The notes under the pieces are model-generated. The model was not told the DNA's origin, did no database searches, and worked only from the letters and a program-made list of their open reading frames with translations. 64,000 bases of DNA. It comes from Candidatus Heimdallarchaeum aukensis. Its GTDB lineage: Archaea; Asgardarchaeota; Heimdallarchaeia; Heimdallarchaeales; Heimdallarchaeaceae. Both the position numbers and the translations under genes were made by a program. The DNA is taken from assembly GCA_021513695.1 (NCBI GenBank), contig CP084166.1, positions 928,001-992,000 of the forward strand. Reading direction: 5' to 3'. Below, piece by piece: positions 10,331 to 44,372 of the stretch. Position 1 is the first letter of the stretch. Each line of letters begins with the position of its first letter.

Positions 10331-10341
10331 TTAGCATACTC

Positions 10342-16300: not shown

Positions 16301-16420
16301 TATCTTCTTTTTCCTCATAGACCTTAATTTTCACACTACTTAGTTCAGCTTAAACATTTATTCCTGCTATACGCAATAGACTTGAAAACGTATTTTCACA
16401 CTACTTAGTTCAGCTTAAAC
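10342..16420 (-). CRISPR. CRISPR array 1, about 93 repeats / 92 spacers (hand count), 29-bp repeat, transcribed on the minus strand
   Basis: Plus-strand unit ATTTTCACACTACTTAGTTCAGCTTAAAC is the reverse complement of the array 2 repeat. Spacers are mostly 34-40 bp, with one of 27 bp. The length 6079 bp equals 93 x 29 plus 92 spacers averaging about 36.8 bp. The leader is at the 16421 end. Confidence 0.98.
11738..13063. repeat. Perfect tandem duplication (2 x 663 bp) of a block of 10 spacer-repeat units inside array 1
   Basis: 11738-12400 and 12401-13063 read identically. Both run from spacer CTGACTTTTTTGGAGAATTTGG... to spacer TCACCTATATATATGATGTTCTAACACATAAAAATC. Confidence 0.9.
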
Positions 16421-20745: not shown

Positions 20746-20850
20746 ATTGTATTTTTTTGTTTAAATTTTACAATTAATTTTTGAAAAAACAACCTTTAAA
20801 ATATTTTTTTCTTTCTGTTTTACCAATAAAACTTAATTATTGGTGTTCCA

Positions 20851-23785: not shown

Positions 23786-23791
23786 TAATAG

Positions 23792-24553
23792 GTGAGACTA
23801 ATGCTAAAACAGGAAGCTGAAGTAAGAGAAGTTTTAGTTTTCGATATTTGGGGTGATTTTGCTCATTTTAAGAAAAACTATGCTACAACTTCAGCTCTTA
23901 CATACAATTTTCCTCCTCGAAATACTATTGCAGGAATAATTGGAGCAATTTTAGGTTTAAAGAGGGCAGATTTTCCTGAAAAATTGTCTCCTGAAAAGAG
24001 TTACATTGGTGTTTCAATACTCTCTCCAATAATGAAAAAAACTATTACAATGAATCTTATTCACACTAAACCTTCTGAATCACTTATATTCAAAAATAAT
24101 TTTGGTTATTTCAAAAAGCACACACAGATTCCTTTTCAATTTTTATCTAATATCTCATTTAGGGTGTATTTTTCAACTGACGATGAGGAAATGTTTTCAC
24201 AACTATATACATATCTTAAAAACCATAAGTCTCATTATACAGTTTCGTTAGGTTTGAGCAATCTACTTTGTAACTTTAAGTTAATAGGAAAAAAAACAAT
24301 AAGAAAAAAAGAAGTAGCTAACAAAGAAGTAGAGGTTTTAACAGTAATTCCGATGAACAAAGTCAAAGAAGTAAATGTGTTTAAAAATCCTAAAATGAAT
24401 ATCGAGAATTTACCCAGATTTATCGATAGTTCAAGAACAGTTCATGAATACCAGGAAGTTCTATCAAGCATGGATCCAGAAAAACCTCTTTTTGTAGTCC
24501 CTAGAGATACCTTATGGGAGATTGAAAATGACAAATTCATCAGTTTCCTCTGA
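23792..24553 (+). CDS. cas5: Cas5 (type I-B)
   Basis: N-terminal Cas5 signature VFDIWGDFAHFKKNYATTSALTYNFPPRNTIAGIIGAILG. Confidence 0.85.
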   Translation: MRLMLKQEAEVREVLVFDIWGDFAHFKKNYATTSALTYNFPPRNTIAGIIGAILGLKRADFPEKLSPEKSYIGVSILSPIMKKTITMNLIHTKPSESLIFKNNFGYFKKHTQIPFQFLSNISFRVYFSTDDEEMFSQLYTYLKNHKSHYTVSLGLSNLLCNFKLIGKKTIRKKEVANKEVEVLTVIPMNKVKEVNVFKNPKMNIENLPRFIDSSRTVHEYQEVLSSMDPEKPLFVVPRDTLWEIENDKFISFL

Positions 24554-26990: not shown

Positions 26991-27002
26991 CGAAATGATG
27001 GA

Positions 27003-27031
27003 GTTCAAGCTAAACTAAGTAGTATGAAAAT
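27003..27031 (+). repeat. Solitary degenerate CRISPR repeat (26/29 identical to the array repeat) between cas3 and cas4
   Basis: GTTCAAGCTAAACTAAGTAGTATGAAAAT vs GTTTAAGCTGAACTAAGTAGTGTGAAAAT, in the same orientation as the cas genes. No second repeat follows. Confidence 0.8.
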
Positions 27032-27073
27032 TAGAGGTAGAAGTAATGGTATTAAATTCTTGGTGAAATTGTA

Positions 27074-27604
27074 ATGGTGGAGTTAAATCATATTAGCATT
27101 AAGAATACTGATTTTGCAGTAACTGGAGTAATGGTTCAATATTTATTTTCATGTAAAAGAGAATTGTGGTTTTTTACCAAAAAAATTGATTTCAACAAAG
27201 AGGATCAGAACATTCAAATTGGCAAAATAATACATGAAACAAGCTATAAACGAAATAAAAAAGAGTTTGACTTAGGTTTTGTAAAATTTGACTTAATTGA
27301 AACAAAAAACAGGATAATAATTTCTGAAATAAAAAAATCTTCAAAACTTTTGGAACCTGCAAAAATGCAACTTTTGTATTATGTTTACATTTTAAGTAAA
27401 ATAACTGAAAAAGAAGTAGAAGGAGAAATTAGAATTCCAAAAGAGAGAAAAAAAGTAAAGATTCAATTGCAAAACGAAGAAGAAAAATTAATTCAAAAAG
27501 CTTTGAGAGAGATTAAAGAAATTTCCTTACTGGAAAGACCTCCCAAAGCAGAAAAAAAATTTTATTGTAAGAATTGCGCTTATTACATTTTTTGCTGGGT
27601 TTGA
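27074..27604 (+). CDS. cas4: Cas4 (RecB-like nuclease with Fe-S Cys cluster)
   Basis: 176 aa. One N-terminal Cys (FSCKRELWF) plus a C-terminal CKNCAYYIFC. Sits before cas1. SD GGTGA at 27062-27066. Confidence 0.85.
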   Translation: MVELNHISIKNTDFAVTGVMVQYLFSCKRELWFFTKKIDFNKEDQNIQIGKIIHETSYKRNKKEFDLGFVKFDLIETKNRIIISEIKKSSKLLEPAKMQLLYYVYILSKITEKEVEGEIRIPKERKKVKIQLQNEEEKLIQKALREIKEISLLERPPKAEKKFYCKNCAYYIFCWV

Positions 27605-28591
27605 GTGAAAAAAATGAAAGATTCTATTTACATTACAAAGGAAGGAGTAATTTACAGAAAAGATAATACTATTGTTTTTCAAAATCAAGAACAAAAGCAT
27701 ACTTTACCTATCGAAGCAGTGAAAGATATATATTGTATTGGCAAAGTAACTATAAGATCTGGAGCAGCTTATCAACTAATGGAAAAAAGGATTCCTGTAC
27801 ATTTTTTCGGAAAATATGGACACTATAGAGGAACATTACAACCAAAACAAGATCTAATCTCTGGAGAAGTAATAGTAAAACAAGTTCAACATTATACTGA
27901 TTACATAAAAAGAATAAAAATTGCAAAAGAGATGTTTAAAGGAATAAAACACAACATTCTCTGGGTTCTAAAATATTACAAATCAAAAAGAGATATAGAA
28001 GATGTAGTTGAAAAAATTGAACATGTTAATATTCAAGAAGAAATATTAAAAATAAATACATTAAGAAGTTTAGAAGGTCAAATATGGGAACTTTTCTATC
28101 AAGCTGCTGATACAATTTGTCCTTCATGGGGTTTTAGAAAAAGGACTAGAAGGCCTCCTTTAGATGAAGGAAATGCACTAATATCTTATGGAAACTCAGT
28201 TCTATATGGAAAAACAATTTCTGAAATATTCAAAACTTATCTTCATCCTGCAATTTCGTTTATACACGAACCAAGTGAAAGAAGGTACTCTTTAGCCTTA
28301 GATCTAGCTGATATTTTCAAACCAGTAATAGTTTTTAGAACAGTCTTCAGGCTTATAAATCAGAAAATAATTTCAAAGAAAGATTTTGAAAAAGAAGTAG
28401 GAGTCCAAATTTCAGAAAAAGGAAAAAAAGTATTTATCACAGAATTAGAAAAAACATTCACAACTACAGTAAGACATCCAAATCTGAAAAGAAATACCTC
28501 ATACCAGTTTTTGATAAGACTTGAAGGACTAAAAATAATGAAACATGTTCTAGGAGATAAAAAATATGAAAGCTTTAAAGCATGGTGGTAG
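27605..28591 (+). CDS. cas1: Cas1 integrase
   Basis: 328 aa in the canonical position, with the conserved C-terminal acidic block SLALDLADIFKP. Probable start ATG at 27614. Confidence 0.9.
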   Translation: MKKMKDSIYITKEGVIYRKDNTIVFQNQEQKHTLPIEAVKDIYCIGKVTIRSGAAYQLMEKRIPVHFFGKYGHYRGTLQPKQDLISGEVIVKQVQHYTDYIKRIKIAKEMFKGIKHNILWVLKYYKSKRDIEDVVEKIEHVNIQEEILKINTLRSLEGQIWELFYQAADTICPSWGFRKRTRRPPLDEGNALISYGNSVLYGKTISEIFKTYLHPAISFIHEPSERRYSLALDLADIFKPVIVFRTVFRLINQKIISKKDFEKEVGVQISEKGKKVFITELEKTFTTTVRHPNLKRNTSYQFLIRLEGLKIMKHVLGDKKYESFKAWW

Positions 28592-28971: not shown

Positions 28972-31900
28972 GTTTAAGCTGAACTAAGTAGTGTGAAAAT
29001 TTCTTTTGTTCTTTGGAGGAGGACAACCTTCAACGAGTTTAAGCTGAACTAAGTAGTGTGAAAATCAGTCTGGGTATATTTTATGCCCCTCAATATTTTG
29101 AGTTTAAGCTGAACTAAGTAGTGTGAAAATTGCTGGCTGGACTGGGCATAATTTCCAGAAATCTCTGTTTAAGCTGAACTAAGTAGTGTGAAAATAGTAA
29201 AATAGCTTTTATTTATTCCGTAGTAATATATGGTTTAAGCTGAACTAAGTAGTGTGAAAATCGCTATTGTAGTCGAGTTAGAAGATGGAGAGATTGAGTT
29301 TAAGCTGAACTAAGTAGTGTGAAAATAAATATATTGTGATGAATTGGATAAAAGAACTAAAAGTTTAAGCTGAACTAAGTAGTGTGAAAATAAACCAGAA
29401 GGAATGACTTTCATTCCTGCTACAGGTTTAAGCTGAACTAAGTAGTGTGAAAATTAATCAGAATAAAATGCTCATAATCATTGGTATAATAGTTTAAGCT
29501 GAACTAAGTAGTGTGAAAATGCAAAGCAATGAAAGGAGTGTTTTGTCTGGTGAGGTCGTTTAAGCTGAACTAAGTAGTGTGAAAATCAATCAGATTTGAG
29601 GGACAAAATAGTCCCGTTGGGACGTTTAAGCTGAACTAAGTAGTGTGAAAATACTGAAGAACAAGAAAAGAATATAAAAAGAACCAAGGTTTAAGCTGAA
29701 CTAAGTAGTGTGAAAATTAATATATCTATCGACTTGAACAAATTAGTTGAAGAGGGTTTAAGCTGAACTAAGTAGTGTGAAAATGGTAAATCCCCCAACA
29801 ATCCTGAAAGTGTTAAATTTGTTTAAGCTGAACTAAGTAGTGTGAAAATATTGTTCTTTTTTCAAATCATCTATTTTTTTTGCTCGTTTAAGCTGAACTA
29901 AGTAGTGTGAAAATTACAATTGACAGTAGTCACACACAAACCATTTAGGTGTTTAAGCTGAACTAAGTAGTGTGAAAATAAAATTCTTCGTGTGTCATAT
30001 AAAAGGCATCATCAGTTTAAGCTGAACTAAGTAGTGTGAAAATAGATCAGAGAGACTTGGGTAGAGTTAGTGAGATCTATGTTTAAGCTGAACTAAGTAG
30101 TGTGAAAATTACATATTTTTGAATAATTGAGACATGCATATGACGTTTAAGCTGAACTAAGTAGTGTGAAAATACAGCTCTCAACTGATAAGAGCGTTCT
30201 TTTTCATTGTTTAAGCTGAACTAAGTAGTGTGAAAATTTGTCAAAGTGTTTGTATAAGTGTCAATATAATCTGTTTAAGCTGAACTAAGTAGTGTGAAAA
30301 TATGTCTTTAGAGACTTGTTGAAGAGCAGGATTGTCAGGTTTAAGCTGAACTAAGTAGTGTGAAAATCAAGCATTTCTGCGATAACGACACCAGAACCAT
30401 TAAGTTTAAGCTGAACTAAGTAGTGTGAAAATTAAATGTGGTCGTGTATCGTTATATGGTGCTCTGAAATGTTTAAGCTGAACTAAGTAGTGTGAAAATA
30501 TATCTCCAGAGTGCCAAATTTCAACATTTGACACGTTTAAGCTGAACTAAGTAGTGTGAAAATCCAATTAATTAAGCCGCTGTTTCAAAAGGTGGTTCAG
30601 TTTAAGCTGAACTAAGTAGTGTGAAAATTTCGATGGATCCATAAAGGTAAATTAGGATCCCAAAAGTTTAAGCTGAACTAAGTAGTGTGAAAATAAAAAG
30701 CCAAGAGATGGATTGATGAACAAAAAAACCGTTTAAGCTGAACTAAGTAGTGTGAAAATCAGTCTGGATAGAGTTTGTGCCCATTAATATTCTGAATTGT
30801 TTAAGCTGAACTAAGTAGTGTGAAAATAGAGTAGGATTGTCAGATTGATCCATAAGGTATAGAAGTTTAAGCTGAACTAAGTAGTGTGAAAATGGTGACG
30901 CCACAAGCGAGGCATTCCCAAGCTCAATAGTTTAAGCTGAACTAAGTAGTGTGAAAATGGATTAAAAAATATGTCTCCTCTCGCTCGTTACGGGTTTAAG
31001 CTGAACTAAGTAGTGTGAAAATAATATCTTTAGATACCTGTTGAAGAGCGGAGTTGGTTTAAGCTGAACTAAGTAGTGTGAAAATCCAAAATTCTCGACT
31101 GCCTCTAAAGCAAATGAGAAAGTTTAAGCTGAACTAAGTAGTGTGAAAATTTTTTTTTCTGTCTGTTATTTCTTCTACTTCTTCTGTTTAAGCTGAACTA
31201 AGTAGTGTGAAAATTTATGATATGCGAACGTTTGCATGTTTGCGAATACAAGTTTAAGCTGAACTAAGTAGTGTGAAAATAGAAAACGTTTGGCTCGAAT
31301 GGATTGGTTTCTATGTCGTTTAAGCTGAACTAAGTAGTGTGAAAATTTGCTAAACCCGCCGCATAATCTTTTTTCTTTTATTTTGTTTAAGCTGAACTAA
31401 GTAGTGTGAAAATTAACCTGCAGAAATATCTTGTAAAATCTTGAATTCAACCTTGTTTAAGCTGAACTAAGTAGTGTGAAAATTAGTTTTGATTTGTAAA
31501 AGACGGATATCCACTTGTTGTGCTGTTTAAGCTGAACTAAGTAGTGTGAAAATATCAACACGTGGGTTTCTATCCAAATCTAATCCTCTGTTGTTTAAGC
31601 TGAACTAAGTAGTGTGAAAATAGCGATATAAAGAAGTTATCCTTTTCAGTATAATAAGGTTTAAGCTGAACTAAGTAGTGTGAAAATAAATTTCTAAAAA
31701 TATTGAAAGGTCAAAATCAAGATTGTTTAAGCTGAACTAAGTAGTGTGAAAATCTAACATGTGTAAGATTCATTGGGCCAATCCAAATTGTTTAAGCTGA
31801 ACTAAGTAGTGTGAAAATCTAAACACAATTTGCATGATGCCATGCTTGTTTTTTGTTTAAGCTGAACTAAGTAGTGTGAAAATGTTGGTTGTGTATAGTG

Positions 31901-33583
31901 TAAATAGATTTTTCTGATTGGGTTTAAGCTGAACTAAGTAGTGTGAAAATTTCTACTTCAAAGAATGAGCACCAATAGTTAAACCAGTTTAAGCTGAACT
32001 AAGTAGTGTGAAAATGCTTCATCTGCTAAAAGTTGTAGTTGTTCATAAAGGTTTAAGCTGAACTAAGTAGTGTGAAAATTGTGCTACATATATACACACC
32101 TATATCCTGTTTATCGTTTAAGCTGAACTAAGTAGTGTGAAAATATCCTGATAGGTGAGTCCTACAGGAGAAAGAAAAAGTTTAAGCTGAACTAAGTAGT
32201 GTGAAAATATCCTGATAGGTGAGTCCTACAGGAGAAAGAAAAAGTTTAAGCTGAACTAAGTAGTGTGAAAATCCCAATAGCATCCTCTTTTATCTGGGGC
32301 TTGGTTTATGTTTAAGCTGAACTAAGTAGTGTGAAAATCTGTGATTTCTGCGGAAATAAACATGTGACGGAAAGTTTAAGCTGAACTAAGTAGTGTGAAA
32401 ATGCAACTCTTTCCGTCCAGCGCACTAAAGCTGCTTTTGGGTTTAAGCTGAACTAAGTAGTGTGAAAATGTTTTTCATGGTAGCTTGCTACCAAAAATTT
32501 ACTTAAAAGTTTAAGCTGAACTAAGTAGTGTGAAAATGAGACTGTTAATAGCGAAGTCAGATTCCTCAAAAGGTGTTTAAGCTGAACTAAGTAGTGTGAA
32601 AATTTGTCTTTACACAGGGCATTCTCAGTTCTGGAGGAAGTTTAAGCTGAACTAAGTAGTGTGAAAATCACATAAACAAATTAGAAAGCGAAATAACCAC
32701 AGTTGTTTAAGCTGAACTAAGTAGTGTGAAAATCAATATTCTTCATCTTCTTCTAAATCATACAATAGCGTTTAAGCTGAACTAAGTAGTGTGAAAATAG
32801 AAAAGAGGAACCGTTGTTCTTAAAGGTAAAAATCGTTTAAGCTGAACTAAGTAGTGTGAAAATAAAGAGTATTGAACTCCTGGTTCAAAACTGATTTTGC
32901 AGTGTTTAAGCTGAACTAAGTAGTGTGAAAATTAATTGCTTTTTTGTCTGCATGACTTGGTAATTCAAAGTTTAAGCTGAACTAAGTAGTGTGAAAATTT
33001 CAAGGTGAGACCAACGATCCTGGTTACTTCGGTTGTTTAAGCTGAACTAAGTAGTGTGAAAATAATATGTAATTAAATAAGTTTTTATTGTGGTAAAATG
33101 TTTAAGCTGAACTAAGTAGTGTGAAAATACATTAAGAAAACGCTTACCATCTAAAGAAACAATCGTTTAAGCTGAACTAAGTAGTGTGAAAATTCATAAG
33201 TTGACCAATATTCAGAAATTACATAACGTTTAAGCTGAACTAAGTAGTGTGAAAATGAAAGCGTTTAGAATTGGTGGCGGTTCTGGTTGCAGGTTTAAGC
33301 TGAACTAAGTAGTGTGAAAATTACTGGGCAATGGAAAAAAGCTGTTGCCGCATTCAAGTTTAAGCTGAACTAAGTAGTGTGAAAATTAACTCACTCGCTC
33401 ACCCTCAGAGAGAGCCACAAACGTTTAAGCTGAACTAAGTAGTGTGAAAATTAATTTACGTCATGACTATGATGCGACCCCCAACGAGGTTTAAGCTGAA
33501 CTAAGTAGTGTGAAAATATTTGACTACTAGGTTTAGGTTTGAATATGAACCAGAGTTTAAGCTGAACTAAGTAGTGTGAAAAA
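28972..33583 (+). CRISPR. CRISPR array 2, about 71 repeats / 70 spacers (hand count), 29-bp repeat GTTTAAGCTGAACTAAGTAGTGTGAAAAT
   Basis: Regular units of about 65 bp. The last repeat ends ...GAAAAA, a single change at its final base. The length 4612 bp equals 71 x 29 plus 70 spacers averaging about 36.5 bp. Confidence 0.98.
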
Positions 33584-36246: not shown

Positions 36247-36484
36247 TCCAAAAGTAAGATTATTTTGAACCATTTTTTAGGAATAAGAAAAAATGGTTAT
36301 AGATGTAAAAAAAATCGGTAGATGTATGAAATATACTTTTCACAAGTTTTGTGATGGAAAATATAGGTATCACATCATTTACTTGTAGATCATTTGTCAT
36401 ATTTACTTGGTTCCTAAATTAATAGAGTAAACATTCGTTGTTTTTTTATCCAAAAATTATAATAATGCTTTCTTTATTTTATAA

Positions 36485-37351
36485 GTGAAAAAAATGAGTG
36501 ATGATAATAATTTTTCTTCTGATTTAAATAATGCCGATAGTGATTTTCTTTTTTCTTCCTCTTCTTTTGAGTCAAACCTTATTAATGGTGAAAAGGTCTT
36601 TAACGATTTTCTTATTCCTTATCGAACTATTTCTTTTTTTGGTCTTGTAGTCTTGACTTTATCCTTTCTTTTGCCTTTGATAGTTATTTTAGTTGTTCAG
36701 TTTGGTACTGATTTTTCTAGAGCTGTTAAATACACTATTGATGTCATAATGGGTTTGTGGCTATTTTTCACTTTCTTGTTTTTCTTTTTCATTGGTTCAA
36801 GTAATCAACGACTTATTATTACTAACTTTCGTTTAATTTGCATTAGAGAGTATTTTCCTTTTTTCTTTAAGAAGTTTAGAATTCTCAAGGAATGTTCTAC
36901 TGATATTAATAGTGTTACTCTTGTTGAGCGCAAAAAGTTTTCTCGTCCTGAACCTTTTATGTTTTTCACTGGATTGTTGATGTTTTTTGTTAGTTTATTA
37001 CTTTTTATTTCTATTAAGATTGTTGAGCAGTTCAACATTTCTTCTTTCATTCAATATAAGAAAACCATTCTTATTAGTAGTTCAATACTTTTGATTCTTT
37101 CTTTTATGCTTATTATTTATGCTATATTCTTTTTCTCCAAGAATATTTACAAACTAGCTTTTTCCATTGGTCAAACTTATCCTCTACCGCCTGTTATTGA
37201 CAGATTATTTTCAAGGAGTTTGAAAGCTGGTTATTGGGTAATTTACGGTTGGGAAAAAGATTCAAAAAGGATGTATGAAGAAGCTCCTCAAATACTATTT
37301 TCTCTTAAATTTGATAAGCATCTTCAACAGAATAATTTGAAGGAGCATTAA
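36485..37351 (+). CDS. Integral membrane protein, unknown function
   Basis: 288 aa with several hydrophobic helices. The track start GTG lies inside an SD-like AGTGA; the probable start is ATG at 36494. Confidence 0.6.
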   Translation: MKKMSDDNNFSSDLNNADSDFLFSSSSFESNLINGEKVFNDFLIPYRTISFFGLVVLTLSFLLPLIVILVVQFGTDFSRAVKYTIDVIMGLWLFFTFLFFFFIGSSNQRLIITNFRLICIREYFPFFFKKFRILKECSTDINSVTLVERKKFSRPEPFMFFTGLLMFFVSLLLFISIKIVEQFNISSFIQYKKTILISSSILLILSFMLIIYAIFFFSKNIYKLAFSIGQTYPLPPVIDRLFSRSLKAGYWVIYGWEKDSKRMYEEAPQILFSLKFDKHLQQNNLKEH

Positions 37352-37789
37352 TTTTTTTTATTACTTTCAACAAGTGGGACTTTTTTAACTAACTTACTAG
37401 CATAATAATTTTTTACTAACTTATTTTTCACTTATAATTCTTATTCTTCTCCTTTTTCTTTACTTTTTTCTTTCTTTATCCTTCTTTATTAATTTCTGTT
37501 AGTACCGACAATTCTTTAACCACATTATTAATTTTAAAAAATGGAATATGAATTCTTAAGCTTCCAAAATGGATCTTTATTTAATGAGACTCACTGTTGT
37601 AGAAATTTAATTTAAAACTATGACTTTTGTACAGAAACTTTTTTTACGAAGTTTTGGGTGTACACCTATTGCTAAGTTTTTTCCTGTTTGCTTCTTACTT
37701 TGCTGTTTCTTTGATTGAATTATTCCTATGCTTTTAATTCCTATTGTTAAGGAGTAATAACAGGAGAAGCTCTTGCGTGAGGGAATAAG

Positions 37790-38053
37790 ATGTCACAAGC
37801 AAAATTTCGTATTTATTGGAAGTCCTATTATCCTGAACGCATTACAGAGGAGTACATCAAAGCTGATAATCCTTGTCACGCTTTACTCTTAATTCGTGAC
37901 AAGTTCTTTGCTGAACATTCTGACGATATTTATTGTGCTTATGTATTTAGTCTACAAGTGAGAAAGGAAGGTTGTTGGGCTGATTGGACTTCTGAGAATG
38001 GTTTAGACATTACTACTCTTGCTGAAGAATTAGAGCTATTTACTTACTCTTGA
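37790..38053 (+). CDS. Hypothetical small protein (87 aa)
   Basis: ORF with non-repetitive composition, preceded by GAGGGAATAAG. No family recognised. Confidence 0.4.
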   Translation: MSQAKFRIYWKSYYPERITEEYIKADNPCHALLLIRDKFFAEHSDDIYCAYVFSLQVRKEGCWADWTSENGLDITTLAEELELFTYS

Positions 38054-38198
38054 TCTTGGTTCTTGTGTTGACAAGTAAAATATTCATAATTGTGCTTTCT
38101 ATGATGACTGAATAAAGTCCGATTGATTGAATTCTTCGTTGCTATTAAAGTTCTTTGATTTTGTTTAATTTTCTTTTCTTTCTTTTTTCTTTTATTCT

Positions 38199-39230
38199 TT
38201 ATTTTTCTTTCTTTGCTTCGTCTTTTGCTCTGTTTTTTGTTTTTATTTTATTTGTTCGTTCTGTCTCTATTTCTTTTTCTTCTATTTTTTTACTTTTATC
38301 TAGTATAATTATTATTACTCCTGCTATTATTCCTATTCCTCCCAGAATGTAAGATAGTGTTATTGGTTCTTTTAGTATTATTGCGCCTAGTATTATTGCG
38401 AACACTGGTTCATCTAGTAGTAGTAATGAGCTTTTTGATGACTCTTGATATTTTGCTGAGATCATCAACAGTCCATATGGTATTACGCTTCCTGCTAGTG
38501 CGAATCCTATTCCTATTAGTATTATTTTTGTTTTCATTATATTTTCTATTTCCATTTTTGCTAACTCTTCTGGTAGGGGTAGTATTGAGAACATTATTAG
38601 TAGAGGTAGAGCTATAATTATTGCCCATGATATCACCCAAGCTATTGATAGGGAATAGGGAACGTTTTTTCTTTTTTCTGCGCTTGCTCTTCCTACTAAA
38701 AGGTAGAAAGCGTAGAACAGTCCATTTAGTATTGCTAGAGTTGTTCCAACTATTGATGACATAAATGACTCCCATTTCCACACTTCTGTCAATGTGATTA
38801 ATCCTGCTGTTGCTACTATTATTGCTAGTATTTTGCTTTTTGTTATCCTTTCTTTTAGGAATATCCTTCCCAGTATTAGTGTTATGAACGGGTGTATCTG
38901 TATTAGCAGTGCTGCTTCTCCTGCTGGTGTTCCTACTGCTATTGAACTTAGGTAAACAACTATCATCATTACGAAGATTAAACTTTGTAACAGGTATGTT
39001 TTCTGATTTGTTAGCTTAATCGAGTTCTTTACTTGTTCTTTGTTTTTCTTTAATGTGTAGAAAACTATTATTCCTAACCCAAATATCGAACCGAAGAATA
39101 TTCTTAGCAATGATTGTTCTATACTTGAAACATTCAGATCTCTTAATATTGCTGAGATTACTGGTATTGAACCAAAAAATAGTCCTGCTGTGATTGATGC
39201 TAAATATGAAAAATTAGTTTTTTTATCCAT
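38199..39230 (-). CDS. EamA/DMT-family transporter with Lys/Glu-rich C-terminal tail
   Basis: 343 aa with about 10 TM helices in two halves, typical of the EamA duplication. Confidence 0.8.
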   Translation of the reverse strand: MDKKTNFSYLASITAGLFFGSIPVISAILRDLNVSSIEQSLLRIFFGSIFGLGIIVFYTLKKNKEQVKNSIKLTNQKTYLLQSLIFVMMIVVYLSSIAVGTPAGEAALLIQIHPFITLILGRIFLKERITKSKILAIIVATAGLITLTEVWKWESFMSSIVGTTLAILNGLFYAFYLLVGRASAEKRKNVPYSLSIAWVISWAIIIALPLLIMFSILPLPEELAKMEIENIMKTKIILIGIGFALAGSVIPYGLLMISAKYQESSKSSLLLLDEPVFAIILGAIILKEPITLSYILGGIGIIAGVIIIILDKSKKIEEKEIETERTNKIKTKNRAKDEAKKEK

Positions 39231-39346
39231 TCTGGTTCGGGGTGTTTTTCTTTTTCACATTTATCAATCTTTACTCTTTCTCCATTCAATTTTCTATTAT
39301 TTATTCTTTCTTTTTTTCTCATTCTTTTCTGATTTTTACTATTTTT

Positions 39347-39396
39347 TCTATCAAACTTATCTATCAAACTTTTCTATCAAACTTTTCTATCATTTC
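39347..39396. repeat. 13-bp tandem repeat TCTATCAAACTT(A/T), about 3.8 copies, in the divergent EamA/HIT intergenic region
   Basis: Read directly: TCTATCAAACTTA TCTATCAAACTTT TCTATCAAACTTT TCTATCATTTC. Confidence 0.8.
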
Positions 39397-39445
39397 TTAT
39401 GCAGCTTTTTCATAATTTTCTTAAATTGAAATTTTTCTTTCTCAT

Positions 39446-39904
39446 ATGGACTGCAGTTGGTGCAATTTAGATAGTTTTTCTGACTATTTCATTTACGACA
39501 GTGAATATTTCAGCGTTTATCTTTCTGAAGATCAAAGTCTTTTAGGTAGACTTATCTTGGTTCTTAATCGTCACGCTTCTTCTTTAAGTGATTTGACTCA
39601 TGAAGAAATACATGATTTTCTTTCTAATGTTAAAATCATTGAAAAAACTTTGACTAAAGCCTTTGGTACAACTATGTTTAATTGGAGTTGTTTGATGAAC
39701 AATTCTTTCAAAAAGCAACCTAGTTTTCCTCATGTCCATTGGCATTGTCGTCCTCGTTATGCTCACGATGTTTCTTTTACTGGTTTAGTTTTTTCTGACC
39801 CTGATTTTGCTCATCATTATAATAACAAAAGAAAACTTTTTGTCTCTCCTGAGGTTCGACAATCTATTATTTCTGCCATCCGAGACAATCTCTCTTCTGT
39901 CTAA
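39446..39904 (+). CDS. HIT-family (histidine triad) protein
   Basis: Histidine triad FPHVHWHCRPRY near the C-terminal third, and HIT size (152 aa). Confidence 0.8.
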   Translation: MDCSWCNLDSFSDYFIYDSEYFSVYLSEDQSLLGRLILVLNRHASSLSDLTHEEIHDFLSNVKIIEKTLTKAFGTTMFNWSCLMNNSFKKQPSFPHVHWHCRPRYAHDVSFTGLVFSDPDFAHHYNNKRKLFVSPEVRQSIISAIRDNLSSV

Positions 39905-40115
39905 TTTATAGAAATTATTTTTTCTCTTCCTTCTTCTTTCCTTCAGATATGTTTGTACTTTACTTCTACTTTTTTTTGTTTCTTTCTTTCTTCCTTCCAC
40001 TTGTTTAAACATATAACCTTTTCTTATTTTATTTTGTAAGGCATTTTATCATTCTACTTTTTATATTCTAGGCCCACCTAATCCATTTGCACTTTTTTTC
40101 GAAACGCTTTTAAAC

Positions 40116-42281
40116 ATGCTCAAATATTTTTCATTGATTGAAGAATCTTTCTTCGGTCATAATAATAACAAATTAGAAGGAATTATTATGAAAAAAAGAA
40201 TGTTAATAACAAGCATTTTCATTTTTGCCTTTTTAGTAGCAGTTATTCCTTTAACTGCAAATGCTAAAGTCCTTTCTACTAGAGCTACAAAGGATTTGGG
40301 CGGTGGAGATGCTTATAACGCATATAGTGCATCTGATTATGCAACCCTTATTAGTACACCTATTTCGGGTTACGGAGATATTTACTATTCCAGTGATCAG
40401 TATGATCAATACAAAGTAGCAGTAAGTTCAGGAGATCAAGTAACGATTGAGTTTACTGCCCCTAGTGGAGCAACAGGAATTGATCTTCCTGTTTATGACA
40501 CTGACAAGTCTCGAATACTCATTCGTTACAACATCCAGACTTTCTCCGAGACTGTTACTGCTTCTGGCAACGGTTACATTTACTTTACTATAGATGCAGA
40601 CACTTATGATGATAGAGGTACTTATTATCTCAGTGTTTCTAAATCTGGAGCAGTTGACACTACTCCACCTACTGTAAGTATTACTGACCCTGCTGATGGA
40701 GCAACTGTTTATTCTGCAGATGTCACTGTTTCATGGACTGGTTCTGACAATGTCGGCATAGACTATTACGAGGTCAGAATTGATGGTGGTTCATGGATCA
40801 ATGTCGGAACATCTACAAGCTACACCTTTACTGGTTTAGCTGACGGTAGTCATACTGTAGATGTTAACGCTTATGACGCTGCAGGAAATGTTGGTTCTGA
40901 CAGTGTAACTTTCACTGTTGATACCAGTGCTCCTCCTACTGAGTATACTTTCACTGGTTCACTTAGTGCTGGACAGGACAGTACTCAACACACCTTTAAC
41001 GTTCCTTCCAACACCATTAAGATCGAGGTTCAGCTTCAAATGCCCAGTGGTGCAGATTACGATTTAAGCCTTTGGGACTCTAATGGAGCTCGAACTGGTG
41101 GTTGGACTTCAACTGATAGTAGTACTAAAACAGATATTGCCAACAGTGATTATTCTGGTTATTCTGCTGATCCTGAGTGGGTTACTGTTGATCCTCCTGC
41201 TGTTTTTGGTACCTGGAAGACTGGTTGTTATGCTTACAGTGGTTCTGGTACTTACACCATCACTGTTACTCTAACGCTCAGTGGTCCAGATACTACTGCA
41301 CCTACTGTTACTATAACTGACCCAACAGATGGTTCTACAGTTAATTCTGCTGATGTTACTGTTTCATGGACTGGTTCTGACGATGTTGGTATTGACCACT
41401 ATGAAGTCAGAATCGATGGTGGTTCATGGATCAATGTTGGAACATCTACAAGCTACACCTTTACTGGTTTAGCTGACGGCAGTCACACTGTAGATGTTAA
41501 TGCCTATGATGCTGCAGGTAACGTTGGTTCTGACAGTGTGACTTTCACTGTTGATACCACTACCAATCCTGTTGAAAAATGGGCAGTTATTGTTGGTATT
41601 AGTGACTACAAAGCTATTAGTGATCTTTCTTACTGTGATGAGGATGCAACTGACTGGTATTATCAACTTACCAGCAGTCAAATGAGTTATGACCATATCA
41701 CTGTTTTAGGAGATGGATATTCTTCTAACTATCCTCAATGGGATGGCTATGCTACAGAGTACAATGTTAAACAAGCTTTGAACAACATGGTTAATTCTGC
41801 TGACTCTAATGACATTATAGCTTTCATCAGTTCTGGTCATGGTTCGGGTAATGGTGCAGGTTCTTCATACTTGTGTATGTGGGACTGCAGTTCAGGAGAA
41901 AACGGAGAAGATGGAAATCTCTATGACACTGAATTAGCAGCAATTCTTGACGGAGCTGTTGCTGACAGGATTTTCGTCTTCTTAGACCATTGTTACAGTG
42001 GTGGTTTTGGAGACGACCTCATGAATATGCCTAACAAAGACCGTGTTTACCTAACAACAACCTGTACAGAAAATGGTTATGGTTATGATGACTCCACTCA
42101 TCAAAATGGTGCTTGGACTTACTACTTCCTAGATTACTCTTGGCAGCAACATTTCGGTGGTGCAGCTAATGTTGCTATGGAAGACATCTTCGACTATGCT
42201 TTAGCTGCTTATCCATACAGTGGTGGAGACACTCCTCAAGAGTTCGATGGAAACACAGGTGCGTACTTCTACCTGGCATAA
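40116..42281 (+). CDS. Secreted multidomain protein: 2 PPC-like + 2 Ig-like (AGN-motif) domains + C-terminal caspase-like (peptidase C14) domain
   Basis: Signal peptide MKKRMLITSIFIFAFLVAVIPLTANA; the probable start is ATG at 40188. Caspase His/Cys dyad context FISSGHGSG and VFLDHCYSGGFG, after KWAVIVGISDYKAISDLSYCDEDA. Confidence 0.75.
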   Translation: MLKYFSLIEESFFGHNNNKLEGIIMKKRMLITSIFIFAFLVAVIPLTANAKVLSTRATKDLGGGDAYNAYSASDYATLISTPISGYGDIYYSSDQYDQYKVAVSSGDQVTIEFTAPSGATGIDLPVYDTDKSRILIRYNIQTFSETVTASGNGYIYFTIDADTYDDRGTYYLSVSKSGAVDTTPPTVSITDPADGATVYSADVTVSWTGSDNVGIDYYEVRIDGGSWINVGTSTSYTFTGLADGSHTVDVNAYDAAGNVGSDSVTFTVDTSAPPTEYTFTGSLSAGQDSTQHTFNVPSNTIKIEVQLQMPSGADYDLSLWDSNGARTGGWTSTDSSTKTDIANSDYSGYSADPEWVTVDPPAVFGTWKTGCYAYSGSGTYTITVTLTLSGPDTTAPTVTITDPTDGSTVNSADVTVSWTGSDDVGIDHYEVRIDGGSWINVGTSTSYTFTGLADGSHTVDVNAYDAAGNVGSDSVTFTVDTTTNPVEKWAVIVGISDYKAISDLSYCDEDATDWYYQLTSSQMSYDHITVLGDGYSSNYPQWDGYATEYNVKQALNNMVNSADSNDIIAFISSGHGSGNGAGSSYLCMWDCSSGENGEDGNLYDTELAAILDGAVADRIFVFLDHCYSGGFGDDLMNMPNKDRVYLTTTCTENGYGYDDSTHQNGAWTYYFLDYSWQQHFGGAANVAMEDIFDYALAAYPYSGGDTPQEFDGNTGAYFYLA
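40656..40926 (+). repeat. Intragenic repeat copy 1 (Ig-like domain), homologous to 41289-41559
   Basis: About 270 bp, offset 633 bp (211 codons) from copy 2. Many differences, but the 3' half is 100% identical at protein level. Confidence 0.9.
41289..41559 (+). repeat. Intragenic repeat copy 2 (Ig-like domain)
   Basis: See copy 1. Over about 54 codons (YEVRIDGG...TFTVDT) I count 12 nucleotide differences, all synonymous. Confidence 0.9.
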
Positions 42282-42283
42282 CC

Positions 42284-42304
42284 TTTTTCTTTTTTTCTTT
42301 TTTC
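42284..42304 (+). terminator. Oligo-T tract after the caspase-like gene
   Basis: CTTTTTCTTTTTTTCTTTTTTC directly after the stop codon. Archaeal termination uses T-runs. Confidence 0.35.
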
Positions 42305-42486
42305 AGAGATTCCTTCGAAAATCTCTTTTTTTTCCTTTAATTTTAAGTAAATCTACATGTTTTCAAAAAATATGGATAAAGATTACCAGAAACACATTAT
42401 TGTTTTAGTTTCAAACAGATCAGAATAATTCATTTATTAAAAAAAAGAATAAATAAAGAATCTATTTCTTATTTTCTTTATTTAGT

Positions 42487-42825
42487 TTATTTTTCTGTTA
42501 TCCACATTTTATTGAAAGCTTTTCTTGTTGTTAGAATACTTGCTCCTATCCACGTTCTGTGCATTCTATCTGTGGTTGCTGTAATTCTTACAACTGCATT
42601 TTTTGGTGCAACTTTTTTCAATTCATAATCTATTCTTTCTCTCATTCCAGGTATCATTGAACTTCCTCCACATAAGATAACATTAGGCCACAACAGTTAT
42701 TCTATTTCTTTACATTTTTGTATAGTTTAAACTATTTCTTCAACTAAGCCTTTTTTCTTTTCCTTTTCGCTTTCTTCAAACAATATTTCTGGTGCAAGAA
42801 ACTTTTCTTTGCTAATTGTATACAC
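42487..42825 (-). pseudogene. Actin-family gene remnant (C-terminal ~110 codons only, two in-frame TAA stops)
   Basis: Minus-strand translation VYTISKEKFLAPEILFEESEKEKKKGLVEEIV*TIQKCKEIE*LLWPNVILCGGSSMIPGMRERIDYELKKVAPKNAVVRITATTDRMHRTWIGASILTTRKAFNKMWITEK* aligns colinearly with eukaryotic actin ...ITIGNERFRCPEALFQPSF...[90 protein letters not shown]. Stops at 42727-42729 and 42697-42699. No N-terminal ~260 codons. Confidence 0.75.
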
Positions 42826-42930
42826 AAAGAAAGGAGAATTTTTGTGAAAAGGTTTTTGGAAAAGCAGTTTATCAATACAAGGAACCAAGTTTAGGAGTAG
42901 TTAAATGAAAAAAAAAGAAAAAGGAACACA

Positions 42931-43152
42931 CTATTCTTGTTTAACTGTAGATATCTTGAAAACTGTATATAATCCACAGTAACCTGTAATCCCAGTAATC
43001 AACGAGATTAATCCCACGATCAACAATATAATTAACAAGACCAAGTTTATTGGGGAGCTAAGTACAAAGTAGAAAACTATTGCCAAAACAGTTAGAATTG
43101 TTCCTAAAGCTACTCTTATTATTCTATCAGTTTTTCCTTCATTTACTTGCAT
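42931..43152 (-). CDS. DUF2892/YgaP-like small membrane protein
   Basis: 73 aa with two TM helices and the C-terminal GYCGLY motif typical of this family. Confidence 0.6.
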   Translation of the reverse strand: MQVNEGKTDRIIRVALGTILTVLAIVFYFVLSSPINLVLLIILLIVGLISLITGITGYCGLYTVFKISTVKQE

Positions 43153-43278
43153 AGTGATTTAAAGTTCTTCAAAAGAGTATAAATATGTTAGTTATTTACA
43201 AAATCCTCGAATTAGCAGTAAAACAAATATAGATGCAAAAATCTGCCTGTTTTTAAGATATCTTAAATGTTCTGAGAG

Positions 43279-44040
43279 GGTAGTGTCTAGTTTTCTTCCG
43301 ACAAAAATATTTGTGGGGACTCTAATAGTAAGATATGAACATTCAAAAACTATCTACTCTTTTTAAGAGATGCAGAGTCCCCAAAAAGATAATAATAAAA
43401 GTTTTTTATGAATATATTGGTTCAAAGAATGGTTTGAGGACAGTAGCATGGAAGAATGGTTTAACACACCAAACATTATGGTATTGGGTAAAGAAGTTCA
43501 GGCTCTTTAGGAAAAGTTTACATAGAATTGTAGCAGAGAGAGGGGGAATACCAGAGATTATAGTAGTTGATGAGACGGAGATTAAGACCTCTCAAGGCTC
43601 AATGTATATGTGGTTCGCGTTAGATCCTTACAACAAGACTTTACTGGGTTTTAGTATTACTAAAGGACGGAGTAATCTTGAATGTTTACTAACTTTCCGT
43701 TATTGGCTCAAATGTTGGGGTTTTAAGCCCCGTATTGTCGTTACAGATGCAGGGGTATGGTATCCTGCCTTACTTCGTCTAGGTATCAAAATCTCCGTTA
43801 TCAAAGGTGGTTTACGCTCCTATATTGAACGTTTTAATGCTACTCTTAAGAGTTATCGTTGGTTTCATTCTATTCTCCACTGCACTTGTCCTATCCGTGC
43901 CGTCTATGGCTCTACTCATCTTTCTGGTTTTCTTACTCTCTTTATGCTCCATTATAATTTCGTTCGTCCTCATCAGAGCTTGGGACATCCTCCCCTTAGT
44001 TCCTTTTTACCTAGGAGGTGGTATAAAAACTAGACACTAC
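43279..44040 (+). mobile_element. IS6-like insertion sequence (762 bp) with perfect 16-bp terminal inverted repeats
   Basis: GGTAGTGTCTAGTTTT at 43279-43294 and its reverse complement AAAACTAGACACTACC at 44025-44040 bracket a single transposase ORF. I saw no flanking direct repeat (TCTGAGAG vs AAGAAAGC). Confidence 0.7.
43335..44033 (+). CDS. DDE transposase, IS6/IS240-like
   Basis: 232 aa. N-terminal HTH. DDE candidates IVVDETEIK, IVVTDAGVWY and SYIERFNATLKS. C-terminal YNFVRPHQSLG. Confidence 0.8.
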   Translation: MNIQKLSTLFKRCRVPKKIIIKVFYEYIGSKNGLRTVAWKNGLTHQTLWYWVKKFRLFRKSLHRIVAERGGIPEIIVVDETEIKTSQGSMYMWFALDPYNKTLLGFSITKGRSNLECLLTFRYWLKCWGFKPRIVVTDAGVWYPALLRLGIKISVIKGGLRSYIERFNATLKSYRWFHSILHCTCPIRAVYGSTHLSGFLTLFMLHYNFVRPHQSLGHPPLSSFLPRRWYKN

Positions 44041-44372
44041 CAAGAAAGCAGGTCCAAAAATTAATTTTTATTAATGTGGGGGTTTATGTCGGAATTATGA
44101 ACTATTTTCAGATTATAGACCCCCACAAAGTAAGAAAATTCATATCATTAATGAACCTTTCCTTAAGAAACTGGTGAAAAATGGACCGAGAGAAAGTAAG
44201 AGAGGGAGAAAGAGAATAGCAGAAAGGTGGGTAATACTGGCTTTAGCAATCATTGCTAGAATAGAAGTACAACTACTTTTTACTTTTTCGGACCGTTTAT
44301 TAGGTGAAAAAGAATTTTTGGACATGCTTAATAAGAAAAAAGAAAAATTAATTATTTAATATGTTTATTTTG

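What the first reader, a model, noticed from the sequence alone, without database searches (positions are those of the whole stretch)
42487..42825. Fossil of a eukaryote-like actin gene
Seen: the minus strand encodes about 110 codons that are colinear with the C-terminal third of actin (motifs ...APEILF..., LCGGSSMIPGM, WIGASIL, MWITEK). There are two in-frame TAA codons, no N-terminal ~260 codons, and a premature end about 15 codons short. The upstream neighbour is an unrelated DUF2892 gene, and an IS6-like element lies about 450 bp away. Established: among prokaryotes, actins this close to eukaryotic actin are characteristic of Asgard archaea. Inference: this is a taxonomic marker for the window and an example of decay of an actin paralog. 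The stops may be nonsense changes such as GAA/AAA to TAA, which AT-biased mutation would favour; I did not establish the ancestral codons.
Basis: partly seen in the sequence, partly recalled or inferred. Interest (0 to 1): 0.5.

Follow-up and report, generated by a model that had tools for sequence, protein, structure and literature searches.

The report
Decaying actin-related gene relic, Heimdallarchaeum
This is a real but dead leftover, the last third of an actin-related gene with two stop codons inside it, in the Asgard archaeon Candidatus Heimdallarchaeum aukensis; it is an ordinary pseudogene, unusual only because related strains show its decay step by step.

Summary
Window 42490-42822 (minus strand) matches Pfam Actin (E 2.5e-25, profile 270-394 of 410). 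It carries in-frame TAA codons at 42727-42729 and 42697-42699. No other actin piece exists anywhere in the 64 kb.

The window is Ca. Heimdallarchaeum aukensis: a neighbouring protein is identical to UJG41617.1, and the genome paper's end-joining PCR primers map at 42768 and 44174. The truncation point is therefore Sanger-verified there.

Three other assemblies of this species carry the same truncated fragment. One has TCA (Ser) instead of the second TAA, so that stop arose by TCA->TAA.

All 8 variable sites in the fragment change the amino acid or the stop codon, against 21 synonymous : 10 nonsynonymous in neighbouring genes (p = 0.0007). This fits neutral decay.

The sister species H. endolithica (three assemblies) lacks the roughly 460-bp segment entirely.

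The fragment is not from the canonical actin: it is 36% identical to beta-actin and 40% to a Heimdallarchaeaceae actin. Its best, weakly supported affinity (45%) is to a small Heimdallarchaeial actin-related-protein clade that ends at the same residue, so the "premature" end is probably the native stop. No close intact parent was found in the protein collections searched.

The IS element is strain-specific and not the cause. Verdict: genuine pseudogene, low to moderate interest.

The parts
42490..42822 (-). Relic coding sequence: 111 codons colinear with the C-terminal third of the actin fold (parts of subdomains 3 and 1)
   Evidence: Pfam Actin E 2.5e-25, profile 270/273-394 of 410. Asgard-ARP profile 118 bits, i-E 1.1e-37, the only hit in the window. 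tblastn with full-length relatives hits only here.
42727..42729 (-). First in-frame TAA. It is shared by all four H. aukensis-type assemblies. Homologs have D/K/Q/N at this column.
   Evidence: No difference at this codon in L001, L005 or L093. The ancestral codon was not determined.
42697..42699 (-). Second in-frame TAA, polymorphic. Strain L093 has TCA (Ser), the residue found in the closest intact homologs.
   Evidence: 42698 T->G on the + strand, i.e. TAA versus TCA. Alignment with P0008 and P0158 shows Ser at this column.
42487..42489 (-). Terminal TAA after ...MWITEK, probably the native stop of the ancestral gene
   Evidence: P0008, P0155, P0156 and P0157 end ...HWITKK* at the same aligned residue. 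The profile match does not continue past it.
42431..42486 (-). 3' trailer with a T8 run (42439-42446) and a 21-nt inverted repeat, terminator-like. In H. endolithica the orthologous tract directly follows the DUF2892 gene.
   Evidence: Sequence read directly. Inverted repeat I5. Comparison with PR6 locus L006.
42823..42930 (-). 108-nt spacer between the DUF2892 stop and the start of actin homology. It has no detectable actin similarity, contains a T-rich tract (42908-42922), and marks the 5' truncation point.
   Evidence: It is absent from H. endolithica.
42457..42926 (.). Segment of about 455-470 bp present in H. aukensis-type assemblies and absent from H. endolithica-type assemblies. It is flanked by an imperfect 14-nt A-rich direct repeat (42439-42452 / 42909-42922).
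   Evidence: blastn of L006, L094 and L095 against the window: alignments stop at 42456/42474 and resume at 42905/42909. Repeat D4.
42931..43152 (-). Intact upstream neighbour: 73-aa YgaP-like/DUF2892 membrane protein
   Evidence: Pfam PF11127, 69 bits. 0 of 222 nt differ from L001. 2 synonymous and 1 nonsynonymous difference from L093.
40116..42281 (+). Downstream convergent neighbour: caspase-family protein with Ig-like domains, identical to UJG41617.1 of Ca. H. aukensis
43279..44041 (+). IS element with perfect 16-nt terminal inverted repeats and a 232-aa DDE transposase. It has no target-site duplication, is present in only some strains, and marks a synteny break.
   Evidence: The L093 alignment ends exactly at 43278. 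L001 extends 112 bp into the IS.
42768..42794 (+). Exact match to the forward primer used by Wu et al. 2022 to verify the end-joining region of the H. aukensis assembly. The reverse primer matches 44174-44200.
   Evidence: PMC8813620.

Best explanation
The feature is a non-functional relic (a truncated pseudogene) of an actin-family gene in Candidatus Heimdallarchaeum aukensis.

Shown:
- Only the last ~111 codons survive. The first ~255-265 codons and any promoter are gone.
- Two nonsense codons interrupt what is left.
- The sequence varies among strains in the pattern expected without selection on the protein.

Inferred sequence of events:
1. An ancestor carried an intact, divergent actin-related protein, probably akin to a small Heimdallarchaeial ARP clade whose proteins end ...WITKK.
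2. The 5' two-thirds were lost, leaving the 3' end and its T-rich terminator next to the DUF2892 gene.
3. A first TAA arose and became fixed in the species.
4. A second arose by TCA(Ser)->TAA in the sub-lineage that also acquired the nearby IS.
5. Substitutions continue to accumulate neutrally.

The sister species H. endolithica has nothing at this site. Most likely it deleted the remnant between two similar T-rich tracts. This polarity is inferred, not shown.

The relic does nothing. It lacks the N-terminal nucleotide-binding half of the actin fold and cannot be an ATPase or polymerise.
For: Identity of the sequence:
- Pfam Actin E 2.5e-25.
- Single hit of an ARP profile in the window, 118 bits.
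- No N-terminal piece in 64 kb.

The stops and the truncation are real:
- Both stops and the DUF2892/fragment junction are present in L001=L004 (97.4% identical, a different sample) and L005 (99.8%).
- The truncation and the first stop are also in L093 (98.0%).
- The truncation point lies inside the amplicon that the genome authors Sanger-sequenced.

Relaxed selection:
- 8 variable sites among four haplotypes, 0 synonymous. They include S->L in the conserved GGSS motif, and C->Y, V->D and R->T.
- Neighbouring genes show 21 synonymous: 10 nonsynonymous; Fisher p = 0.0007.
- SNP density against L001 is 5/336 in the fragment, 7/439 in intergenic DNA and 5/1437 in neighbouring genes; p = 0.026.

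Progressive decay:
- L093 keeps TCA (Ser) where the others have TAA. Ser is the residue in P0008 and P0158.
- Pfam score is 89 bits, against 96-128 bits for the same segment of intact Asgard ARPs.

ARP rather than canonical actin:
- 45% identity to P0008 and P0158, 36% to beta-actin, 40% to the Heimdallarchaeaceae actin P0276.
- The neighbour-joining tree places it as sister to the P0008/P0158 clade.
- It shares their C-terminal end.

[quoted passage not shown] Intact actin is reported for both Heimdallarchaeum genomes (PMC8813620).
Against: - No intact parent or ortholog was found. The best non-self identity is at most 49% over the 68-aa ORF in an exhaustive search of 1.84 billion cluster representatives, and at most 45% over the whole 109-aa fragment. 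The ancestral gene is therefore hypothetical.
- The affinity to the Heimdallarchaeial ARP clade has only about 32% bootstrap support on 107 columns.
- The clade's conserved upstream partner genes (246 aa and 172 aa) are absent from the window.
- No outgroup preserves the synteny, so loss in H. endolithica cannot be told from gain in H. aukensis.
- Expression was not tested.
- Variant counts are small, and some sites are shared between strains.
Confidence: 0.85

Rival explanations
1. Imported fragment rather than in-situ decay. A promoterless 3' piece of an actin-related gene, with its own stop and about 100 nt of unrelated upstream sequence, was inserted into the DUF2892-caspase spacer in the H. 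aukensis lineage after it split from H. endolithica. The piece came from an unsampled donor by illegitimate recombination. No full-length gene ever sat at this site.
For: - H. endolithica (PR6, L094, L095) has DUF2892 and the caspase gene directly convergent with a 178-nt spacer, and it also lacks the 108-nt upstream spacer.
- No related gene was found among the proteins of either Heimdallarchaeum genome, both of which are in the collection.
- The locus is prone to indels. L093 also carries an extra 992-aa gene relative to PR6.
- A short direct repeat flanks the segment.
Against: - The G+C content of the fragment (30.9%) equals that of the window (31.8%).
- Prokaryotic genomes are deletion-biased, and two similar T-rich tracts flanking the segment provide a simple deletion route.
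- The flanking repeat is low-complexity and could be chance.
- No mobile-element signature adjoins the segment, and the IS is separated from it by an intact gene.
- The outcome is a pseudogene under either scenario.
Confidence: 0.3
2. The surviving ORF is a functional small protein. This would be the 68-aa ORF from TTG 42693, or the 56-aa ORF from ATG 42657 which has a GGAGG 7 nt upstream. It could be co-transcribed with DUF2892.
For: - Gene callers predict it in three assemblies, as 68 aa by NCBI and 56 aa by JGI/Logan.
- The ORF is intact in all four haplotypes.
- A Shine-Dalgarno-like GGAGG precedes the ATG.
Against: - All five substitutions inside the 68-codon ORF change the amino acid, several of them radically (C->Y, S->L, V->D, R->T).
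- The GGAGG is simply the conserved Gly-Gly codons.
- A strong T-run lies between DUF2892 and the fragment.
- The piece lacks the nucleotide-binding N-terminal half of the actin fold (established structure of the family).
- The whole segment is absent in the sister species.
Confidence: 0.03
3. Assembly or sequencing artefact. The truncation reflects the end-joining of the H. aukensis assembly, and the stops are base-calling errors.
For: The published circularisation joint of the assembly lies within 42768-44200, which includes the 5' boundary of the fragment.
Against: - The joint was verified by PCR and Sanger sequencing, and the assembly was polished at 346x.
- Three other assemblies from other runs or samples span the DUF2892-fragment-caspase arrangement, with the first stop in all three and the second in two.
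Confidence: 0.01
4. A recently decayed copy of the canonical Asgard actin (Lokiactin type), or eukaryotic contamination.
For: The best solved-structure matches are eukaryotic Arp1 (77.8 bits) and actins (about 62-68 bits).
Against: - Identity is only 36% to beta-actin and 40% to a Heimdallarchaeaceae canonical actin fragment (P0276). Canonical sequences are 55-66% identical to one another over the same segment.
- With two stops and no frameshift, decay is too slight to explain that distance.
- The fragment is embedded in syntenic Heimdallarchaeum DNA in four assemblies.
Confidence: 0.02

Closest known systems
Heimdallarchaeial actin-related protein clade. Members: P0008, P0155, P0156 (Ca. Heimdallarchaeota archaeon 18H4_34, GCA_019057815.1), P0157 and P0158 (Ca. 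Heimdallarchaeaceae archaeon). None has a published name.
   Same: - Highest-scoring intact relatives, 44-45% identity over 109 aa.
- Shared local motifs: LW.N, IPG, WIGASIL..R..F.K.WIT.K.
- Four of the five clusters end at the same residue.
- Sister group in a neighbour-joining tree.
   Different: - Within-clade identity is 55-91%, so the fragment lies outside or at the base of the clade.
- Bootstrap support is only about 32%.
- The clade's genes are 379-385 aa, intact, and preceded by conserved 172-aa and 246-aa genes that are absent here.
Asgard actin-related proteins in general (Rodrigues-Oliveira et al. 2023, PMC9834061)
   Same: Actin-fold paralogs other than Lokiactin, with patchy distribution attributed to gene losses, gains and duplications. 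This relic is a concrete case of such a loss in progress.
   Different: The described ARPs are intact genes. This is a 5'-truncated, nonsense-bearing remnant.
Lokiactin / canonical Asgard actin and eukaryotic actin
   Same: Same Pfam family (PF00022). The conserved GG(S/T)(S/T)M, PG and WIGG/WIGAS motifs are retained.
   Different: - 36-40% identity, against 55-66% among canonical sequences over this segment.
- It lacks the last ~15 residues (...EYDESGPSIVHRKCF).
- Lokiactin is reported as highly conserved across Asgard lineages, unlike this gene.
Eukaryotic Arp1 (centractin; PDB 5adx, 5nw4)
   Same: Best solved-structure match by sequence: 77.8 bits, about 41% identity over residues 247-355.
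   Different: The margin over actin (about 68 bits) and 'HC1 actin' (73 bits) is small. There is no evidence of orthology, and Arp1 has the canonical C-terminal extension.

Membership tests
Actin family (Pfam PF00022) | Significant match to the family profile | tested here: met
   89.3 bits against a cut-off of 27, E 2.5e-25, profile 273-394 of 410.
Actin family (Pfam PF00022) | Complete actin fold, including the N-terminal phosphate-binding loops (subdomains 1-2) | tested here: not met
   Only profile positions 270-394 are present. No N-terminal homology was found anywhere in the window.
Actin family (Pfam PF00022) | Uninterrupted reading frame | tested here: not met
   TAA at 42727-42729 and 42697-42699, reproduced in other assemblies.
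Canonical Asgard actin (Lokiactin type) | High identity to eukaryotic actin and to other Asgard actins | tested here: not met
Canonical sequences share 55-66% over the same segment.
Canonical Asgard actin (Lokiactin type) | Canonical C-terminal extension after WI(S/T)K (...EY.E.GP..VHRKCF) | tested here: not met
   The stop comes directly after WITEK, and there is no homology downstream in frame.
Heimdallarchaeial ARP clade (P0008/P0158) | Groups with the clade in a phylogeny | tested here: inconclusive
   Neighbour-joining sister to the whole clade, but in only 65 of 200 bootstraps, on 107 columns and 41 sequences.
Heimdallarchaeial ARP clade (P0008/P0158) | Protein ends at ...WITKK | tested here: met
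   The fragment ends WITEK*. P0008, P0155, P0156 and P0157 end WITKK*. P0158 runs 10 residues further.
Heimdallarchaeial ARP clade (P0008/P0158) | Gene preceded by conserved 172-aa and 246-aa genes | tested here: not met
   tblastn of both partner proteins finds nothing in the window. DUF2892 lies upstream here instead.
Pseudogene (operational definition) | Disabling lesions that are real rather than sequencing errors | tested here: met
   The truncation and the first stop are in four assemblies, the second stop in three. The junction was Sanger-verified by the genome authors.
Pseudogene (operational definition) | Relaxed selection on the encoded protein | tested here: met
   0 synonymous: 8 nonsynonymous or stop-affecting sites, against 21:10 in neighbouring genes, p = 0.0007. 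SNP density equals that of intergenic DNA. Sample sizes are small.
Pseudogene (operational definition) | No functional product | not testable with these tools
   Needs transcriptome or proteome data from H. aukensis enrichments.
IS6 family (neighbouring element) | Transposase reaches the family model's cut-off | tested here: not met
   NCBIfam transpos_IS6 gives 47 bits against a cut-off of 125. Pfam rve_3 gives 24.8 against 26.5. It is a DDE transposase with 16-nt terminal inverted repeats, at best IS6-like.

The most novel reading that the evidence does not exclude
The fragment is the only sampled trace of an otherwise unknown Heimdallarchaeial actin-related-protein lineage. It reached this site as an imported gene piece rather than by decay in place. 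That would be direct evidence that pieces of eukaryotic-signature cytoskeletal genes move between Asgard lineages and are then eroded. A polymorphic nonsense codon (TCA/TAA) dates the erosion to within a single species.
Probability: 0.25. Interest if true: 0.4.

Novelty: new member of a known kind. Interest (0 to 1): 0.25.

Why it matters
Actin-related proteins are among the eukaryotic-signature proteins used to reconstruct the cytoskeleton of the archaeal ancestor of eukaryotes. Their patchy distribution in Asgard archaea is attributed to repeated gain and loss.

This relic shows such a loss caught in progress in one of the two circularised Heimdallarchaeum genomes:
- truncated in one species,
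- absent in its sister,
- with one nonsense codon still polymorphic among strains.

It is also a caution for presence/absence scoring. Gene callers report a 56-68-aa 'Actin' ORF here, which automated surveys could count as an actin homolog. Beyond that it is an ordinary pseudogene with no expected function.

Tried and rejected
The 68-aa ORF was used instead.
- The genome-contig scan with the 68-aa ORF found no relative. The source genome seems not to be searchable there, and H. endolithica lacks the fragment.
- The viral-contig scan found nothing.
- The metagenome-contig scan with DUF2892 returned only distant homologs (43-56%) with no actin nearby.
- tblastn of actin/ARP queries against the 80 loci around caspase-family homologs found no actin. 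No outgroup with conserved synteny was obtained, so the polarity of the indel stays open.
- Close reading of the junction in the AT-rich flanks could not distinguish deletion from insertion.
- The idea that the IS truncated the gene was rejected. An intact DUF2892 gene lies between them, and strain L093 has the same truncation without the IS.
- A retro-copy reading (5' truncation plus flanking repeats) was rejected. The sense-strand 3' end is a T-rich terminator, not an A-tail, and the repeats are low-complexity.
- Rfam and tRNA scans of the window were empty.
- Cluster-name look-ups for more distant ARP clusters gave no organism names.
- Structure prediction was not run. Sequence evidence was decisive.

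Full report
**1. The observation**

On the minus strand, window 42822-42490 reads YTISKEKFLAPEILFEESEKEKKKGLVEEIV*TIQKCKEIE*LLWPNVILCGGSSMIPGMRERIDYELKKVAPKNAVVRITATTDRMHRTWIGASILTTRKAFNKMWITEK*.

- Pfam Actin (PF00022) matches at 89.3 bits, E 2.5e-25, over profile positions 273-394 of 410. With the flanks included the match is 270-394 and extends neither upstream nor past the final stop.
- A profile I built from seven Asgard actin-related proteins gives exactly one hit in the six-frame translation of all 64 kb, at 42822-42484: 118 bits, i-E 1.1e-37, profile 256-370 of 378.
- tblastn with ten full-length relatives finds nothing else.

So the C-terminal third is present, the N-terminal ~255-265 codons are absent from the window, and there are two in-frame TAA codons (42727-42729 and 42697-42699).

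The neighbours are as described. A 73-aa YgaP-like/DUF2892 gene lies at 42931-43152. An IS with perfect 16-nt terminal inverted repeats lies at 43279-44041; its transposase is only weakly IS6-like.

**2. Where the window comes from, and whether the sequence can be trusted**

The neighbouring caspase-family protein (40116-42281) is identical to UJG41617.1 of Candidatus Heimdallarchaeum aukensis, on a 3,081,793-bp contig.

The genome paper (Wu et al. [quoted passage not shown] Those primers match the window exactly at 42768-42794 and 44174-44200. The amplicon covers the 5' end of the fragment, the truncation point, DUF2892 and the IS. The final assembly was polished at 346x.

Independent assemblies agree:

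| Locus | Source | Identity to window | Span or state |
|---|---|---|---|
| L001 = L004 | JGI 3300033141 / GCA_054383975.1 | 97.4% | 41067-43390; both stops present |
| L005 | Logan SRR15988959 | 99.8% | 42299-43253 |
| L093 | JGI 3300033148 | 98.0% | 36586-43278; same truncation |

An artefact is excluded.

**3. Evidence that it is decaying**

Among the four haplotypes there are eight variable sites in the 333-nt relic. None is synonymous: K/E, K/R, stop/Ser, V/I, C/Y, S/L (in the conserved GGSS motif), V/D and R/T.

- The neighbouring EamA, HIT, caspase and DUF2892 genes show 21 synonymous to 10 nonsynonymous differences in the same comparisons. Fisher p = 0.0007.
- Against L001, SNP density in the fragment (5/336) equals that of the surrounding intergenic DNA (7/439). 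It is four times that of the neighbouring genes (5/1437, p = 0.026).
- The fragment scores 89 bits on Pfam Actin. The same segment of intact Asgard ARPs scores 96-128 bits, and beta-actin scores 155. Decay is therefore real but modest.

Strain L093 has TCA (Ser) where the window, L001 and L005 have the second TAA. Ser is also the residue at that column in the closest intact homologs. That stop therefore arose by TCA->TAA inside the species. It arose in the same sub-lineage that carries the IS: L001 extends into the IS, and the L093 alignment stops exactly at its left end.

The first TAA and the truncation are shared by all four haplotypes and so are older. The ancestral codon of the first stop remains unknown. 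Homologs have D, K, Q or N there.

**4. What kind of actin it was**

Identity over the fragment (except where noted):

| Comparison | Identity |
|---|---|
| P0008 and P0158 | 45% |
| Arp1 | 41% |
| P0016 | 41% |
| Canonical Heimdallarchaeaceae actin fragment P0276 | 40% |

Canonical sequences share 55-66% with each other over this segment. The relic therefore did not come from the canonical, highly conserved Asgard actin. It came from a divergent actin-related protein.

P0008, P0155, P0156, P0157 and P0158 form a small clade from Heimdallarchaeial MAGs.

- They share local motifs with the fragment: LW.N, IPG, WIGASIL..R..F.K.WIT.K.
- Four of the five clusters end ...HWITKK*, at exactly the residue where the fragment ends.
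- A neighbour-joining tree places the fragment as sister to this clade, but with only about 32% bootstrap support.

A T8 run and an inverted repeat follow the stop. Together these points argue that the '15 codons short' end is the native stop rather than a further lesion.

In intact members the ARP gene follows conserved 172-aa and 246-aa genes. Neither is in the window.

No closer intact relative was found.

- The word-indexed search of 5.8 billion clusters found only the orthologous relic ORF.
- The exhaustive HMMER search of 1.84 billion representatives gave at most 49% identity over the 68-aa ORF.
- A profile search gave at most 45%.

Both Heimdallarchaeum proteomes are in that collection. 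So neither genome appears to hold a parent copy. One caveat: relatives of about 50-65% identity could in principle slip through both kinds of search.

**5. Comparison with the sister species**

Ca. H. endolithica PR6 is reported at 88% ANI to H. aukensis. It is colinear with the window from 36451 to 42456 and again from 42909 to 43203. Only the segment of roughly 455-470 bp carrying the relic and its 108-nt upstream spacer is missing.

In PR6 the caspase and DUF2892 genes are directly convergent with a 178-nt spacer. DUF2892 is followed by the tract that in H. aukensis follows the relic. Two further endolithica-type assemblies (L094, L095) are the same.

The segment is flanked by an imperfect 14-nt A-rich direct repeat. 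None of 80 loci around more distant caspase-family homologs keeps the synteny or carries an actin, so there is no outgroup.

I favour presence in the common ancestor followed by complete deletion in H. endolithica between two similar T-rich tracts. This rests on deletion bias and the simple mechanism. Insertion of a gene piece in the H. aukensis lineage is not excluded; I put it at about 0.3. Either way the present-day object is a dead fragment.

**6. The IS**

The IS did not cause the truncation.

- An intact DUF2892 gene separates it from the relic.
- L093 has the identical truncation and no IS.
- The IS has no target-site duplication, and the sequence to its right differs from what follows in L093. 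It therefore marks a strain-specific rearrangement. It probably corresponds to the repeat at which the assembly ends were joined.

**7. Rivals considered**

- Functional micro-protein. A 56- or 68-aa ORF is predicted by gene callers. This is unlikely: every substitution in it is nonsynonymous, the GGAGG before the ATG is just the Gly-Gly codons, the piece lacks the nucleotide-binding half of the fold, and the sister species lacks it entirely.
- Contamination or a eukaryotic origin. This is excluded by the embedding in syntenic Heimdallarchaeum DNA and by the low identity to actin.

**8. Verdict**

The source organism is now identified and the sequence validated. One nonsense mutation is polarised, the 3' end is reinterpreted as native, and the IS is exonerated.

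It is a new example of a known kind of thing. Literature already describes Asgard ARPs as evolving by gain and loss (PMC9834061). Its modest interest lies in three points: it documents a loss in progress with strain-level resolution, it may be the only trace of an unsampled ARP lineage, and it is a trap for automated counting of eukaryotic-signature proteins.

Noticed in passing
window 10340-16400 and 28972-33480, with ORFs 20023-28591 between them: Two large CRISPR arrays in opposite orientation share the 29-nt repeat GTTTAAGCTGAACTAAGTAGTGTGAAAAT, with about 90 and about 71 copies. They flank a type I-B cas operon: Cas6, Cas8b/Csh1, Cas7/Csh2, Cas5b, Cas3, Cas4, Cas1b. Two unannotated ~500-aa ORFs (16570-19525) sit next to the first array.
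   Followed up: partly
window 11709-12008 and 12372-12671: A 300-nt stretch of the first CRISPR array is repeated at 100% identity 663 nt downstream. The neighbouring repeat-spacer units at the same offset also match. A block of spacers has therefore been duplicated within the array, or this is an assembly duplication.
   Followed up: no
window 43279-44041: The IS has perfect 16-nt terminal inverted repeats (GGTAGTGTCTAGTTTT) but no target-site duplication. It is absent in strain L093, whose sequence diverges from the window exactly at 43278. It marks the end of synteny with H. endolithica and lies inside the published end-joining amplicon of the assembly.
   Followed up: partly
L001/L004 (GCA_054383975.1, contig JBQSCX010000308.1): This contig is labelled 'Candidatus Freyarchaeota archaeon' in NCBI but is 97.4% identical to Ca. 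Heimdallarchaeum aukensis over 2.3 kb. The MAG label or the binning of this contig looks wrong.
   Followed up: partly
window 41543-41585, relative to L001: Strain L001 has a 43-nt deletion inside the caspase-family gene, which splits it into 230-aa and 191-aa ORFs. This is a second gene at the locus that is broken in some strains.
   Followed up: partly
L006 12346-12570 (H. endolithica PR6): The PR6 ortholog of the DUF2892 gene has AAG in place of the ATG start and TGA in place of codon 6 (GGA). No ORF of 60 aa or more remains there. A 61-aa version is called in L094. It is possibly also decaying.
   Followed up: partly
L093 6796-9774: The H. aukensis-type strain L093 carries a 992-aa gene (faint FG-GAP hit) between DUF2892 and the 480-aa membrane-protein gene. 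H. endolithica lacks it, and the window has the IS and different genes at that place. The locus is an indel and rearrangement hot spot.
   Followed up: no
window 36586-37351 (ORF 36485-37351): This ORF differs from strain L093 at 6.9% of sites, while neighbouring genes differ at 0.5-1.1%. It is either locally hypervariable or a recombined gene.
   Followed up: no
L091 6733-9140, L002 2-2433 (first gene cut by the contig end), L092 654-2532: The closest intact ARPs (379-385 aa, ending WITKK in most) sit in a conserved arrangement after a 246-aa gene that has no Pfam hit and overlaps the ARP start. In two of the loci a 172-aa gene precedes that. In L092 another actin-family gene lies just upstream. 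This may be an uncharacterised Heimdallarchaeial ARP operon.
   Followed up: partly
window 40656-40926 and 41289-41559: An internal ~270-nt repeat (about 86-88% identical) lies within the caspase-family gene. It corresponds to duplicated Ig-like (Big_7) domains.
   Followed up: no
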